NCBI GenBank assembly: GCA_963771465.1 | Contig: CAVYTU010000017.1 | Coordinates: 288,001-352,000 of the forward strand | From: an uncultured delta proteobacterium | Lineage (GTDB): Bacteria > Desulfobacterota > Binatia > UBA9968 | DNA: 64,000 nucleotides | Direction: 5' to 3' | Part shown: in pieces, positions 23,000 through 25,173 of the stretch | Numbering within the stretch: position 1 is the stretch's first letter | Layout of the letters: each line of letters opens with the position of its first letter | Made by a program: the position numbers and the translations under genes | The notes under the pieces: model-generated | What the model was told of the DNA's origin: nothing | Database searches by the model: none | Seen by the model: only the letters and a program-made list of their open reading frames with translations

Positions 23000-23953
23000 A
23001 TGCCATCGATTGGTTTGATCGGACTCGGCAACGCGGGGCGGCCGATGGCGGAACGGATTCTCGCCGCGGGGTTTTCGTTGACGGTTTATGACATTGATGC
23101 CGCGGCGCTCGAATACGCCGTCGAGCGCGGCGCGGCGCTGGCAAGTAGTGCACGCGAAGCGGTGCGCGACATTACCATCACGCTTTTGCCCTCGTCGGTC
23201 GAAGTGCGCCAAGCGGTGCTCGGCGAAAACGGCGCGCTGAGCGCGCTCGGAGCGGGCAAGGCGCTCATCGATCTCAGCGGCACCGACCCGGATTGCGCTC
23301 GCGAGTTAAGCGAGCGGCTCGGAGAAAAGCAAGCAGTATTTATCGGCGGTACGATCCACGCCAGCGGCGCGCCAGCCGTTGTGATCCCCAACGGGCAATT
23401 TGCCATCGTCATCGGCGGCGAGAAGGCGGCAATCGAGCCAGCGGCGAAGTTTTTGAATAGCTTAGCGCAGACTGTGATCTGCCTGCCCGAGCCGTGGATG
23501 CCCAAGGCATTCAAGATTGCGATCATTTTATACGCGACGACAAACAACATCATCAGCGCCGAAATTTGTTCATGGCTAACGGCCCAGGGCGCTGACCCGA
23601 AATTATTCCTCAAGCTATTACAAACCACCGGCTCGCAAGCTTCGGCGTCGCGCATGGAAGAGTTCATGAAGCGCAACAACAACGACGGCGGCGCGCTCAG
23701 CAACAGCTACAAAGATTTTCGCCAGGCGCTGAACATCGCCGCTAAACTGGAAGTCCCCATGCCGCTGGCGTCCATGGCAAATCAGATTCAAGAGATGGGG
23801 CGAGCGACGGGGTTGAAGCGCTTCAACAGTCCGGCGGCGATGGGCAAGCTCTATGAACTCATTAGCGGCGCAGATCTAAGCGATGCGACCGTGCCGGCCA
23901 ATAAGAAAATTCCAGCAAGCCGCGAGCCGAGAATTATTTTTCTCGACAAGTGA
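23000..23953 (+). CDS. NAD(P)-dependent oxidoreductase (3-hydroxyisobutyrate/6-PG dehydrogenase family)
   Basis: IGLIGLGNAG Rossmann motif, TLLP, IDLSG. Confidence 0.85.
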   Translation: MPSIGLIGLGNAGRPMAERILAAGFSLTVYDIDAAALEYAVERGAALASSAREAVRDITITLLPSSVEVRQAVLGENGALSALGAGKALIDLSGTDPDCARELSERLGEKQAVFIGGTIHASGAPAVVIPNGQFAIVIGGEKAAIEPAAKFLNSLAQTVICLPEPWMPKAFKIAIILYATTNNIISAEICSWLTAQGADPKLFLKLLQTTGSQASASRMEEFMKRNNNDGGALSNSYKDFRQALNIAAKLEVPMPLASMANQIQEMGRATGLKRFNSPAAMGKLYELISGADLSDATVPANKKIPASREPRIIFLDK

Positions 23954-23981
23954 CGCAATTGTAAATATTTGAAAATAACTC

Positions 23982-24010
23982 TTGACTTGATTATGCGGCG
24001 GCGTTAGGAA
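23982..24010 (+). promoter_or_regulatory. Sigma70-like promoter of the intergenic RNA
   Basis: TTGACT (23982-87) - 17 nt - TAGGAA (24005-10), preceded by an AT-rich UP-like tract. Confidence 0.55.
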
Positions 24011-24016
24011 GCAATT

Positions 24017-24428
24017 AGAGCGAGCGATTAGCGCAATGAGAAGCAGAGCGAGGCTCACGCGAGCTTCAGCTGCTTCATGAAATGGAGGAGTTCATGAACG
24101 AACAAGACACTCCACCGGGCCATTGGCGCCCGCTAGCGGCGGGCGCGGGCAGGTCGATGAGCTTAACAGTTGGATATCGAGCTGCGTGAATCGAGGCCGC
24201 AACTTCGGCACCAGAAGGTGCGAACCCGTAATCGGGTCAATCAGAAGGACGGGCCTCCCTCAAAAAAGCAGTTCCGTCAAATCCATCCAACGTTAGCTCA
24301 ACGCGAAGCAGTGCCAAGCGAAAAGCCAGCTAGCGGGGCGGGCTAAAAAAATTCTAAATCGCTAAGTATCGACGCGATAGCGTCGGCAAACGGGCAACCG
24401 AACTCCAGAGGTTGCCCGTTTTGTTTTT
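24017..24428 (+). ncRNA. Candidate large structured non-coding RNA of unknown family
   Basis: Flanked by a promoter and terminator; nested long-range helices 24023-29/24357-63, 24129-40/24325-37, 24158-75/24285-300 plus at least six local hairpins; no ORF of 60 aa or more inside. Confidence 0.65.
24388..24428 (+). terminator. Rho-independent terminator
   Basis: AAACGGGCAACC / GGTTGCCCGTTT 12-bp perfect stem followed by TGTTTTT. Confidence 0.85.
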
Positions 24429-24480
24429 GTGGCAAAACCTCATTCGGAGTATGGTTCACAACATGGGCGCTGGCGGAGAG

Positions 24481-25173
24481 TTAACTCAGAAGCCGGCCGT
24501 AGCCCTTGACCGGAATCTTCATCCCGAGCGTTTTCATCACCCACCCGAGCGATGCAGCGGTGGACGACACTACAGGCCGTCCAGTGTCATCTTCTAATTC
24601 CTGCACGTATGCGACTGTGCGCCAGCGGCCTTGAAGCAGTAGGCTTTCGACTTCTGGATGCGCGCGGCGACTTTGTAAGAAGCGTAATCCGGCAGCTTCA
24701 CCTGGTCGACCGGCTTGGACACGTTCAATCCTGCGATGGCCAAAACCTTGACGCCACCGTCGTCGTAGTATTTTTTGATTGATTGGTTGATGGATTCCTT
24801 ATACGCCGTTGCAATAATAGTCTTGACCTGTAAATGCTTAAGCGCTTCGACCGTCGCGCTCATCGCTGTGCTGACCGGCAGGCCGACTTGTTGTGAAAGC
24901 TTGGCGACGACTTCCTGTTCCGCTGCAAAACCTCGCTGGGTTCCGAGCGTAATTCCGCCCATCAGGATCGCGTCGCACTCCTCGGCCTTGAAAATGCCCA
25001 GACCAGTGCGGAGGGCGGCGATCGCTTTGTTAAATTCCGCTTCAGTGTGCGACTGGACGTTGAGTCCCGACGAGACGATCGTGAAGCCTTTGGGTAGGGT
25101 GAAACCCCCAATCCGATGGGTTTTCAAAAACCGATGGTGATAAATAGCCAATGCGCGCTTTCCAACCAGACAT
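24481..25173 (-). pseudogene. Maleate isomerase/arylmalonate decarboxylase (Asp/Glu racemase) family, frameshifted
   Basis: MSGWKARIGYLSPS from ATG 25173 (GAGGAG RBS); shift at the C5 run near 25105; second break near 24660, then HPEVESLLLQG...RPVVSS...GYGRLLS*. Confidence 0.75.

What the first reader, a model, noticed from the sequence alone, without database searches (positions are those of the whole stretch)
23982..24428. Stand-alone ~410-nt highly structured RNA gene of no recognisable family
Seen: an intergenic stretch between convergent genes has its own promoter (TTGACT-17-TAGGAA) and a 12-bp intrinsic terminator, with no long ORF. It folds as a nested architecture. The closing helix is AGCGATT(24023-29)/AATCGCT(24357-63). 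The 5' domain hairpins are GAAGCAG(24040-46)/CTGCTTC(24070-76), with inner AGGCTC/GAGCTT, and TGGAG(24083-87)/CTCCA(24110-14). Long-range helices are CCCGCTAGC-GGC(24129-40)/GCC-A-GCTAGCGGG(24325-37) and a 16-bp helix TGAGCT-t-AAC-a-GTTGGAT(24158-75)/ATCCAACGTTAGCTCA(24285-300). The latter closes a multi-way junction with four small hairpins (TGCG/CGCA, GCACC-agaa-GGTGC, ACCCG-taat-CGGGT, GACGG/CCGTC). A CGACGC-gata-GCGTCG hairpin precedes the terminator. Known: it lacks the tmRNA T-arm and acceptor ends, the RNase P GAGGAAAGUCC core, the SRP S-domain motif and riboswitch cores, and no gene lies downstream on its strand. Inference: a novel large ncRNA, in the size class of Ms1 or large SRP RNA, possibly a scaffold or an RNAP- or ribosome-binding RNA.
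Basis: partly seen in the sequence, partly recalled or inferred. Interest (0 to 1): 0.85.

Follow-up and report, generated by a model that had tools for sequence, protein, structure and literature searches.

The report
Abundant structured RNA with stall mini-ORF
A previously undescribed, highly expressed RNA gene of about 400 bases from an uncultured soil bacterial lineage folds into a conserved rod-and-junction shape and also carries a tiny conserved reading frame with a Pro-Pro ribosome-pausing motif, so it may tie an RNA fold to the state of translation.

Summary
The element is real. Window 23983-24428 (+) holds a sigma-70-like promoter, a ~410-nt transcript and a 12-bp terminator. It matches none of 4227 Rfam families. 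tmRNA, RNase P and SRP RNA lie elsewhere in the genome.

Covariance models find it in 27 of 31 genomes of the genus, including 10 of 10 high-quality ones. I read 51 copies from 49 genomes of at least 18 genera. The core three-way junction covaries strongly: 22 of 23 pairs show compensatory changes. The long rod co-varies strand with strand. Contigs from RNA libraries of four studies cover it.

All 50 copies with an intact 5' side keep a Shine-Dalgarno site, a start codon and an ORF of 8-52 codons. Pro-Pro is invariant, with wobble variation in both codons, and is followed by Gly, Asp or Asn in 47 of 50. An invariant 7-nt spacer then leads to the GCCCGC at the base of the rod.

Best reading: a free-standing RNA whose fold is coupled to a ribosome pausing at the Pro-Pro motif. 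Its output is unknown.

The parts
23983..24011 (+). Promoter: -35 TTGACT (23983-88), 17-nt spacer, -10-like TAGGAA (24006-11). The transcription start is inferred near 24017-24020.
   Evidence: Sequence. CTTGACA at the same place is kept in every homolog whose upstream DNA is on its contig. The consensus scan did not list it.
24040..24076 (+). 5' hairpin 2: GAAGCAG/CTGCTTC with an inner hairpin.
   Evidence: Window MFE. Relatives have GAAGAG/CTCTTC at the same place. In many relatives, but not in the window, the apical loop holds a 6-nt palindrome.
24084..24088 (+). Shine-Dalgarno GGAGG, 5 nt before the ATG.
   Evidence: 50 of 50 copies with an intact 5' side have GGAGG, AGGAG or GAGG 3-10 nt before the start codon.
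24094..24189 (+). Mini-ORF of 31 codons plus TGA. It forms the 5' strand of the rod from about codon 12 onward.
   Evidence: ORF list and ORF tables of the homologs. In 12 codons around Pro-Pro, stops occur in frame 0 in 2 of 50 copies, against 15 and 22 of 50 in the other two frames.
24112..24120 (+). Pro-Pro-Gly codons CCA CCG GGC, the candidate ribosome pause site.
   Evidence: Pro-Pro occurs in 50 of 50 copies. Codon 1 is CCA 36, CCG 12, CCC 2; codon 2 is CCG 39, CCT 9, CCA 2. The next residue is G 42, D 4, C 3, N 1. The 7-nt spacer to GCCCGC holds in 50 of 51 copies.
24128..24140 (+). Invariant GCCCGC (24128-33) and the 5' strand of the rod base. It pairs with 24325-24337, or alternatively with the adjacent GCGGGC.
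   Evidence: helix 5 never varies; neighbouring helices 6 and 7 covary. The choice between local and distal partner is not resolved.
24158..24175 (+). 5' strand of the 16-bp central rod helix.
   Evidence: Window MFE. The own-versus-other duplex test supports strand-with-strand co-variation.
24178..24278 (+). Three-way-junction core. It comprises the stem below the junction, the closing helix 24193-98/24252-57, hairpin 24208-21 and hairpin 24224-37. The junction strands are conserved (UCAA..., purine-rich AGAAGG).
   Evidence: Covariance-model hit 24109-24277 at 155.6 bits. 93% of cells are paired and 22 of 23 pairs show compensatory change.
24285..24337 (+). 3' strand of the rod (24285-24300 and 24325-24337).
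24370..24385 (+). Conserved GC hairpin CGACGC-GATA-GCGTCG.
   Evidence: Helix 13 (3 of 6 pairs covary). It is present in distant copies.
24388..24428 (+). Intrinsic terminator: 12-bp stem, 10-nt loop and a T-run.
   Evidence: Sequence. Helix 14 (9 of 13 pairs covary). The scan did not list it because of the loop length.
24481..25151 (-). Convergent neighbour, not part of the RNA: an arylmalonate-decarboxylase/racemase-family gene that is split into two frames in the window.
   Evidence: Pfam PF17645 matches on 24594-25151 (profile positions 24-151) and on 24481-24606 (profile positions 190-228).

Best explanation
This is a free-standing gene for an abundant, structured RNA of about 400 nt. It founds a new family confined, as far as searched, to one order of uncultured soil bacteria. 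The named contigs that hold family members are mostly titled Candidatus Binatia or delta-proteobacterial MAGs.

The RNA has two coupled modules.
- Module 1 is mRNA-like. It has a strong promoter, 5' hairpins, a Shine-Dalgarno site, an AUG and a mini-ORF. The only invariant coding feature of the ORF is [S/T]-Pro-Pro-[Gly/Asp/Asn], a diprolyl motif of the kind that slows peptide-bond formation and needs EF-P.
- Module 2 is the fold. From 7 nt behind that motif the ORF becomes the 5' strand of a long interrupted rod. The rod is capped by a conserved three-way junction and closed by the 3' strand. A GC hairpin and a terminator follow.

Proposed mechanism (inferred, not shown): a ribosome initiates on the mini-ORF and pauses at Pro-Pro-X, with the base of the rod at the entrance of its mRNA channel. 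The length of that pause would depend on EF-P activity and on Pro/Gly-tRNA supply. The pause would then decide whether the invariant GCCCGC element stays paired and whether the rod is entered and unzipped. That in turn would set the RNA's conformation, its stability or the availability of its 3' half and junction for a partner acting in trans.

What is shown: the gene, its fold, its conservation, its presence in RNA libraries and the selection on the ORF signals. What is inferred: translation itself, the pause and the output.
For: Family and fold:
- No Rfam match in the window or in 20 relatives.
- The covariance models find it in 27 of 31 genus genomes and in 10 of 10 high-quality ones. In the order, 66 of 123 genomes match.
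- I inspected 51 copies from 49 genomes.
- Core structure: 93.0% of cells are paired against 75.9% in shuffles. 194 compensatory cells are seen against 51.5 +/- 6.8. Slid controls give 29-41% paired.
- Rod: duplex energy of a copy's own two strands averages -56.3 kcal/mol against -45.6 for foreign pairings. The own partner ranks in the top five in 36 of 51 copies. Pair 143:320 is AU in 8 and GC in 7 sequences.

ORF:
- 50 of 50 copies have an SD and a start codon (48 ATG, 2 GTG) in frame with an invariant Pro-Pro. Both wobble positions vary.
- The next residue is G, D or N in 47 of 50 copies.
- Positions 1 and 2 of both Pro codons have zero entropy, while position 3 has about 1 bit. Frame 0 has a stop in 2 of 50 copies, against 15 and 22 of 50 in the other frames.
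- In one genome the start codon lies two codons further in, and the SD has moved with it.
- The spacer is exactly 7 nt in 50 of 51 copies although its sequence varies freely.
- Starosta et al. [quoted passage not shown]
- EF-P is encoded in the genome.

Expression:
- 20 runs from 13 studies hold the stretch, and 11 of the 20 are RNA libraries.
- Contigs from four RNA libraries of four studies cover 24031-24391. Word depth is 1202 in a 42-million-letter library and 455 in another.

Strand:
- The promoter, SD and terminator all face the same way in all copies.
- GU+UG pairs number 65 against 29 AC+CA in the core pairs.
Against: - There is no direct evidence of translation. No ribosome profiling or proteomics was available, and 9 of 9 peptides looked up are absent from a collection of 15 billion proteins.
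- Thr or Ser before Pro-Pro (41 of 50 copies) is a weak-stall context. The same paper found TPPP the weakest.
- CCNCCN could be an RNA-level motif.
- Beyond about codon 17 the peptide is not conserved. Frameshifting indels change its C-terminus in four genomes (G043, G071, G074, G084). ORF lengths run from 8 to 52 codons.
- Two genomes of one genus stop right after Pro-Pro-Gly, so unzipping of the rod cannot be the universal step.
- No output is identified. There is no conserved downstream gene. I saw no terminator/antiterminator alternative.
- Whether GCCCGC pairs locally or distally is unresolved.
- The RNA-library evidence consists of assembled contigs, which show neither strand, ends nor level, and such libraries can hold DNA.
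Confidence: 0.4

Rival explanations
1. It is a purely non-coding housekeeping RNA. The rod and three-way junction would bind a protein or a ligand, for example as a 6S- or Ms1-like RNA polymerase binder or another RNP scaffold. The SD/AUG-like letters would serve RNA structure or protein binding and would not be translated.
For: - Near-universal in the genus.
- Covered by contigs of high word depth in RNA libraries.
- Strongly covarying structure with conserved junction strands.
- No 6S RNA was found in the genome with RF00013.
- Much of the ORF sequence is dictated by helices. For example, the codon before the third Pro varies only at its first position.
Against: - 50 of 50 copies keep an SD, correct spacing and a start codon in frame with Pro-Pro. 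Insertions and deletions between them keep that frame (distances of 12, 15 and 18 nt). Wobble-only variation is seen in both Pro codons, and stops are depleted in that frame alone.
- The 6S search found 6S in only 5 of 14 control genomes, so its absence says little.
- In most relatives the 5' and 3' ends do not close a 6S-like rod with a central bubble.
Confidence: 0.2
2. It is the mRNA of a genuine small protein or peptide of about 30 residues, with the conserved N-terminus M-x-[ED]-x-[ST]-P-P-G-x-x-x-P-x-x-A-G. The peptide would be the product, and the long structured 3' part would only stabilise or regulate that mRNA.
For: - Conserved translation signals and a conserved N-terminal peptide pattern.
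- Dual-function or peptide-encoding sRNAs are known. One example is rnTrpL/peTrpL (PMC7968998), of which I saw only the search listing and the start of the abstract.
Against: - Two genomes encode only 8 residues.
- Lengths run from 8 to 52 codons, and C-termini change frame in four genomes (G043, G071, G074, G084).
- The 'P-x-x-A-G' part coincides with the invariant GCCCGC-N5-GCGGGC RNA element. In the two 8-codon copies that element is kept with the same spacing although it lies behind the stop.
- A three-way junction with conserved junction nucleotides across at least 18 genera is more than a stabiliser needs.
Confidence: 0.15
3. It is a cis- or antisense regulator of the neighbouring convergent racemase/decarboxylase-family gene. 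Read-through of the terminator would give antisense RNA.
For: The convergent PF17645 gene lies behind the RNA in 7 of 10 loci tested, from five genera. In the window it ends only about 53 nt behind the terminator.
Against: - 3 of those 10 loci have other genes there, and upstream genes vary.
- More distant members have unrelated genes behind them, some on the same strand and several with a promoter-like TTGAC upstream of their own start.
- The second copy in the window's own genome sits elsewhere.
- The terminator is strong, and I found no competing structure.
Confidence: 0.05
4. It is a diverged member of a known RNA family (tmRNA, RNase P, SRP, a riboswitch, an intron) or a decayed coding or mobile fragment.
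For: Its size class and its mRNA-like plus structured layout recall tmRNA.
Against: - No Rfam hit even at E <= 10 beyond chance-level eukaryotic and archaeal snoRNA or microRNA models.
- ARAGORN finds nothing.
- tmRNA, RNase P and SRP RNA are found elsewhere in the genome at 188, 309 and 70 bits.
- One or two copies per genome, in a syntenic place, with a conserved promoter and terminator.
Confidence: 0.02

Closest known systems
Ribosome-sensing leader ORFs with proline codons (Salmonella mgtP/mgtL; recalled from memory, not read here) and classic trpL-type attenuators
   Same: A very short ORF with its own SD. Its few critical codons make ribosome progress depend on a translation input, and an RNA helix begins at the edge of the paused ribosome.
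   Different: Those are 5' leaders of the genes they control and work through terminator/antiterminator or SD-sequestering alternatives. Here there is no conserved downstream gene, the transcript ends at its own terminator, and about 250 nt of conserved fold lies between the ORF start and the terminator.
rnTrpL/peTrpL of Sinorhizobium (PMC7968998; search listing and start of abstract only) and other dual-function sRNAs (RNAIII, SgrS, SR1; recalled)
   Same: A released small RNA that also carries a translated mini-ORF. Both RNA and ORF may matter.
   Different: Those RNAs are smaller or act through known base-pairing seeds. No target or seed is known here. The ORF here forms one strand of the main helix of the RNA.
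tmRNA
   Same: An abundant, housekeeping-like RNA of about 350-400 nt that combines a short reading frame with a large conserved fold. Many of the ORFs here end in Ala-Ala or Ala-Val.
   Different: tmRNA has a tRNA-like domain and no SD or AUG. Here there is no tRNA-like domain and an SD/AUG is present. A normal tmRNA exists elsewhere in the genome.
Large ornate bacterial RNAs of unknown function (OLE, GOLLD, ROOL, raiA). The cryo-EM preprint 10.1101/2024.12.08.627333 was seen only as the start of its abstract.
   Same: Large size, strong covariation, lineage restriction, high expression and unknown function. A palindromic hairpin loop in many members hints at self-association.
   Different: None of their Rfam models match. 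To my knowledge none of them carries a conserved translated mini-ORF.
6S RNA / Ms1
   Same: An abundant stable RNA built around a long irregular rod.
   Different: No RF00013 match. The rod is capped by a three-way junction, not a loop. The 5' part is mRNA-like. In most members no closing stem joins the two ends.

Membership tests
tmRNA (RF00023) | tRNA-like acceptor/T-arm domain recognised by ARAGORN or the Rfam model | tested here: not met
   ARAGORN found 0 genes in the window. There is no Rfam hit. The genome's tmRNA is at C10:92569-92920 with 188 bits.
tmRNA (RF00023) | Tag reading frame entered without an SD or start codon | tested here: not met
   50 of 50 copies have an SD plus ATG or GTG.
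6S RNA (RF00013) / Ms1 | Match to the covariance model; a single rod closed by the two ends, with a central bubble | tested here: not met
   No match in the window or in the genome (the control found 6S in only 5 of 14 genomes). The per-sequence folds show a junction-capped rod and free 5' hairpins.
RNase P RNA, SRP RNA | Match to the Rfam models | tested here: not met
   No hit in the window. Both are found elsewhere in the genome: 309 bits at C10 and 69.9 bits at C7.
Riboswitch or other cis-acting 5' leader | A conserved gene class directly downstream on the same strand | tested here: not met
   The transcript ends at its own terminator. The genes behind it are convergent in 7 of 10 loci and otherwise unrelated.
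Ribosome-dependent attenuator (trpL, mgtP type) | Short ORF with an SD and a few critical codons | tested here: met
   Mini-ORF with an invariant Pro-Pro followed by G, D or N in 47 of 50 copies.
Ribosome-dependent attenuator (trpL, mgtP type) | Mutually exclusive terminator and antiterminator helices that control a downstream gene | tested here: inconclusive
   GCCCGC can pair with either of two GCGGGC elements. By reading the alignments I found no alternative that competes with the terminator, and no downstream gene is conserved.
Dual-function sRNA | The small ORF is translated and the RNA also acts by itself | not testable with these tools
   Only sequence signatures of selection on the ORF are available. 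No target search was made.
Known large ornate RNAs (OLE, GOLLD, ROOL, raiA, HEARO) | Match to their Rfam models | tested here: not met
   0 matches at gathering score in the window. 0 matches at E <= 0.1 in 20 family members.

The most novel reading that the evidence does not exclude
It is a free-standing 'ribosome-gated' RNA: a trans-acting structured RNA that uses its own mini-ORF with an EF-P-dependent Pro-Pro-Gly/Asp/Asn pause as a sensor of translation-elongation capacity (EF-P activity, Pro/Gly-tRNA supply). The paused or advancing ribosome would switch the invariant GCCCGC element and the rod behind it. That switch would set the activity or lifetime of an abundant regulatory or ribosome-holding RNA. 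Many members may also self-associate through a palindromic loop. This would be a new kind of housekeeping RNA in a widespread uncultured soil lineage.
Probability: 0.3. Interest if true: 0.9.

Novelty: new variant of a known kind. Interest (0 to 1): 0.85.

Why it matters
If the reading holds, three things follow.
- It adds a large, highly expressed, near-universal RNA family to a lineage of soil bacteria that has no cultured member. This explains contigs that appear in soil and rhizosphere metatranscriptomes from many studies.
- It offers the first case known to me in which a conserved EF-P-type stall motif is built into a free-standing structured RNA rather than into the leader of a regulated gene. 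The idea of RNA-based sensing of elongation capacity then becomes directly testable with a cell-free system with and without EF-P.
- It shows that 'non-coding' RNA candidates should be screened for conserved mini-ORFs. Here the ORF is invisible to gene callers: 9 of 9 peptides are absent from 15 billion predicted proteins.

Tried and rejected
- Pattern scan of genome contigs. Of the 80 listed loci screened with model R1, only 7 were true hits. The scan served only to read the organism titles of named contigs.
- Phylum-wide sample with model R2. Of 150 other genomes, 2 had weak hits (28.6 and 24.8 bits). Both align only to the GC-rich 5' part and lack the junction. I do not count them as members. 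The family was not found outside the order in the genomes searched.
- Base-of-rod test. The invariant GCCCGC plus the next 9 nt was paired against the copy's own and against foreign 3' regions. The own mean was -23.3 and the foreign mean -21.3 kcal/mol (sd 3.2), and the own partner was best in only 4 of 51 copies. This does not discriminate, so the choice between local and distal pairing of GCCCGC stays open.
- Selenocysteine or read-through of the TGA. The frame behind the TGA stays open in one relative, but in the window it closes after 13 codons (my reading). Rejected.
- Programmed frameshifting at CCA CCG GGC. The 7-nt spacer resembles frameshift geometry, but the codons are not a slippery site. 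Set aside; not tested.
- RNA-library flanks. In X9, X11 and X16 no contig was laid on 23600-24030 or 24392-24800.
- RNA-library contig ends. Adapter letters abut the X16 contig at 24042 and 24373 and the X11 contig at 24391. These could mark discrete RNA ends or be artefacts of library preparation or assembly. I draw no conclusion.
- Consensus promoter and terminator scan. It listed neither signal.
- Literature. Searches for Binatota + noncoding RNA (1 unrelated paper), Binatia + sRNA (0 papers), soil metatranscriptome / structured RNA terms and EF-P / leader peptide / polyproline / sRNA terms found no description of this RNA. A term search in preprint 10.64898/2026.10.21.760802 found no mention of the lineage.
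I did not use structure prediction, complex prediction or the large protein searches, because the ORF is too short to gain from them.
Full report
**1. What is at the coordinates**

Between a 3-hydroxyisobutyrate-dehydrogenase-like gene (23000-23953, +) and a convergent PF17645 gene (minus strand) lies a stretch without any long ORF. The PF17645 family covers arylmalonate decarboxylases and racemases.
- TTGACT, 17 nt, TAGGAA (23983-24011).
- A 12-bp terminator with a T-run (24388-24428).
- The listed helices.

The plus strand folds at -175.7 kcal/mol (z = -6.3; 0 of 100 shuffles as good). The minus strand folds as well (z = -6.45), so energy alone does not give the strand. A simple consensus scan listed neither the promoter nor the terminator. 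They are credible only because they are conserved in relatives.

**2. It belongs to no known family**

- All 4227 Rfam models give no match at gathering score in the whole window.
- Around the element, only chance-level eukaryotic and archaeal snoRNA and microRNA models appear up to E = 10.
- Twenty relatives give no match at E <= 0.1.
- ARAGORN finds nothing.
- The genome has its tmRNA, RNase P RNA and SRP RNA elsewhere.
- 6S RNA was not found. That search finds 6S in only 5 of 14 control genomes, so the miss says little.

**3. It is a conserved gene family**

- BLAST with the window found relatives in 10 of 24 other genomes sampled from the genus. With a more typical copy, 18 of 31 genus genomes matched, the window's own included.
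- Model R1 is a covariance model of the 165-position core, built from 15 genus copies. It matched 66 of 123 genomes of the order at E <= 0.01. By family the figures are 62 of 89 in the window's family, 2 of 5 in a second and 1 of 28 in a third. In all, 22 of 27 genera matched.
- Those tallies include three unpublished genomes (G005, G082, G093). They also include some matches of 42-55 nt that I did not inspect.
- I inspected 51 copies from 49 published genomes of at least 18 genera. All 51 show the same layout.
- Model R2, rebuilt from those 51 copies, finds the RNA in 27 of 31 genus genomes and in 10 of 10 that are at least 90% complete with at most 5% contamination. The four genomes without a match are 60-82% complete.
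- Seven genus genomes hold two or three matches, though one genome's matches include two partial copies cut by contig ends. The window's genome has a second, divergent copy at C12:114336-114501 (79 bits).
- In a sample of 150 other genomes of the phylum, only two partial matches appeared. Both lack the junction.
- Seven named contigs that hold members carry titles such as Candidatus Binatia bacterium, delta proteobacterium MAG, Syntrophobacter sp. and, once, Chloroflexota bacterium.

**4. The fold**

Single-sequence folds of 15 copies share one architecture:
- One or two 5' hairpins.
- A long interrupted rod whose 5' strand starts at an invariant GCCCGC.
- A three-way junction that caps the rod.
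- The 3' strand of the rod, ending in GCGGGC.
- An A-rich linker, a GC hairpin and the terminator.

Junction core, on the 51-copy alignment:
- 93.0% of 1110 cells are standard pairs, against 75.9 +/- 0.7% in shuffles.
- 22 of 23 pairs show changes on both sides.
- 194 cells are compensatory, against 51.5 +/- 6.8 in shuffles.
- Sliding the partner by 1-3 columns drops pairing to 29-41%.
- That alignment was fitted to the model's structure, which favours the structure somewhat.

Rod and 3' elements:
- The variable central part of the rod aligns poorly, so I compared duplex energies instead. A copy's own two strands average -56.3 kcal/mol, against -45.6 (sd 6.8) for foreign pairings. The own partner is best in 15 of 51 copies and within the top five in 36 of 51. 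One of the failures is the IS-interrupted copy.
- On the 15-copy full-length alignment, the helix next to the rod base has pair 143:320 as AU in 8 and GC in 7 sequences. The GC hairpin covaries at 3 of 6 pairs and the terminator at 9 of 13 pairs.

Not supported:
In the per-sequence folds only the window forms it.
- The TGCG/CGCA hairpin.
- The GACGG/CCGTC hairpin.

The invariant GCCCGC can pair with the GCGGGC five bases behind it or with the distal GCGGGC. Neither test separates the two.

**5. The overlooked mini-ORF**

The window has GGAGG at 24084-88, ATG at 24094 and a 31-codon frame that ends at TGA 24187-89. Of the 51 copies, 50 have their 5' side on the contig. All 50 show the following:
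- An SD 3-10 nt before a start codon (48 ATG, 2 GTG).
- That start is in frame with a Pro-Pro pair.
- Codon 1 is CCA 36, CCG 12, CCC 2. Codon 2 is CCG 39, CCT 9, CCA 2.
- The residue after Pro-Pro is Gly 42, Asp 4, Cys 3, Asn 1.
- The residue before it is Thr 21, Ser 20, Asn 5, Ile 2, Ala 2.
- The start-to-Pro distance takes the values 12, 15 and 18 nt. My selection rule gave 6 nt for one copy, which also has an ATG at 15 nt.

Further signatures of selection:
- In one genome the start lies two codons further in, and the SD has moved with it.
- In 12 codons around Pro-Pro, a stop occurs in this frame in 2 of 50 copies, against 15 and 22 of 50 in the other two frames. The two copies with a stop belong to one genus, and their ORF ends right after Pro-Pro-Gly, giving 8 codons.
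- Entropy is zero at positions 1 and 2 of both Pro codons and about 1 bit at position 3.
- Behind about codon 17 the peptide is not conserved. Lengths run from 8 to 52 codons (median 31). Indels shift the frame in four genomes (G043, G071, G074, G084).
- Some codons vary only where the RNA helix allows it.
- The spacer between the codon after Pro-Pro and GCCCGC is 7 nt in 50 of 51 copies although its letters vary freely.
- None of 9 peptides looked up exists in a collection of 15 billion predicted proteins.

**6. Why Pro-Pro-Gly/Asp/Asn matters**

Passages of Starosta et al. 2014 (PMC4176338) state three things:
- Ribosomes stall at diprolyl motifs XPPZ.
- EF-P relieves the stall.

The same paper finds Thr before the prolines to be the weakest context, which argues for a modest pause. 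The genome encodes EF-P.

With the second Pro codon in the P site, the first base of GCCCGC lies 13 nt downstream. From general knowledge of ribosome footprints (recalled, not tested), that is about where mRNA enters the ribosome.

**7. Expression**

- Twenty public runs from 13 studies hold at least half of the sampled words of the stretch. Eleven of the 20 are RNA libraries from soil or rhizosphere.
- Contigs from four RNA libraries of four studies lie on the element:
  - X11: 24070-24391, word depth 1202, in a 42-million-letter library.
  - X16: 24042-24373, word depth 455.
  - X9: 24031-24389.
  - X3: 23843-24437.
- Contigs prove neither strand, ends nor level, and RNA libraries can contain DNA.
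- The plus strand is favoured by the orientation of the promoter, SD and terminator in all copies. It is also favoured by 65 G-U pairs against 29 A-C mismatches in the core pairs.

**8. Context**

- The convergent PF17645 gene follows the RNA in 7 of 10 loci tested, from five genera. The other three loci have NMT1-like, cupin or cytidylate-kinase-like genes there.
- Upstream genes vary: YCII, dehydrogenase, HtrA-like protease, EamA and others.
- More distant members have unrelated genes behind them, some on the same strand and several with a promoter-like TTGAC upstream of their own start.
- Nothing points to a gene controlled in cis.

**9. Interpretation**

Shown:
- A stand-alone gene with a strong conserved promoter and terminator.
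- A covarying rod-and-junction fold.
- Near-universal presence in its genus and wide presence in its family.
- Presence in RNA libraries.
- Purifying selection on an SD, a start codon and a Pro-Pro-[G/D/N] motif placed at a fixed distance from the base of the rod.

Inferred:
- Ribosomes initiate there and pause at the motif in an EF-P- or tRNA-dependent way.
- The paused or advancing ribosome decides the pairing of GCCCGC and the fate of the rod. The fate of the RNA's 3' half and junction would follow from that.
- The 8-codon ORFs show that entering the rod is not required everywhere. The common denominator is therefore a ribosome parked at the rod's base.

What the RNA then does is unknown. 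It could act in trans, hold ribosomes, or merely be stabilised by the parked ribosome.

I give this coupled model 0.4. Its rivals are:
- A purely non-coding scaffold: 0.2.
- A true small-protein mRNA: 0.15.
- A regulator of the neighbouring gene: 0.05.
- A missed known family: 0.02.

**10. Novelty**

No curated family matched, and none of my four literature searches found a description of this RNA. The closest concepts are proline-codon leader ORFs, attenuator-derived dual-function sRNAs, tmRNA and the large ornate RNAs. It fails the defining tests of each, as set out in the membership table.

I rate it a new variant of a known kind: a structured or dual-function RNA with a sensing mini-ORF. 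It has a fair chance of being something categorically new.

Noticed in passing
window 24481-25151 (-): The convergent PF17645 gene (arylmalonate decarboxylase / racemase family) is split into two frames. ORF 24594-25151 matches profile positions 24-151, and ORF 24481-24606 matches positions 190-228. Seven relatives have one ORF covering positions 7-228. This is a frameshift, a pseudogene or an assembly error.
   Followed up: partly
G000:C12:114336-114501 (-), locus L221 (outside the window): The window's own genome holds a second, divergent copy of the RNA (79 bits with model R2). It has its own CTTGACA promoter, SD, ATG and a Pro-Pro-Asp ORF. Seven of 31 genus genomes have two or three matches, so the family seems to have at least two paralogous types.
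   Followed up: partly
L013 / L059 (G024:C648:4-2057): In one genus genome the RNA gene is interrupted behind the junction. Its last ~100 nt (GC hairpin and terminator) lie about 1.7 kb away, and the insert encodes a DDE transposase (PF01609, PF05598). This copy also fails the own-strand duplex test, which serves as an internal control.
   Followed up: partly
L199 (G087) and L210 (G088), about 125-150 nt into the printed stretches: Two genomes of one genus have an 8-codon ORF that stops directly after Pro-Pro-Gly. They still keep the 7-nt spacer, GCCCGC and the rest of the fold.
   Followed up: yes
5' hairpin 2 of many relatives (e.g. L050, L187, L189, L191, L193), equivalent to window 24040-24076: The apical loop of the second 5' hairpin holds the 6-nt palindrome GCGCGC in many members. 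Two genomes of one genus have GUGCAC, which is also a palindrome. This hints at loop-loop self-association. The window's own copy lacks it (loop ACGC), as do the members with a short 5' leader.
   Followed up: partly
window 24070-24088: The 3' arm of hairpin 2 (CUUC/CUUCC) can alternatively pair with the Shine-Dalgarno GGAGG a few bases downstream. RNAalifold chose this pairing (columns 60-64 with 79-83). Changes there are mostly one-sided (one pair of five has two both-side changes), so it is only weakly supported.
   Followed up: no
window 24207 and 24260 onward, run X9: One RNA-library contig carries G>A at 24207 and diverges from the window behind 24260, in the A-rich stretch between the junction and the 3' strand. 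This is probably a co-occurring strain variant of the same RNA.
   Followed up: no
L137 and L087 (named genome contigs records): Near-identical family members sit on contigs whose titles name very different taxa (Chloroflexota bacterium, Syntrophobacter sp., delta proteobacterium, Candidatus Binatia). The submitters' labels for this lineage are inconsistent.
   Followed up: no
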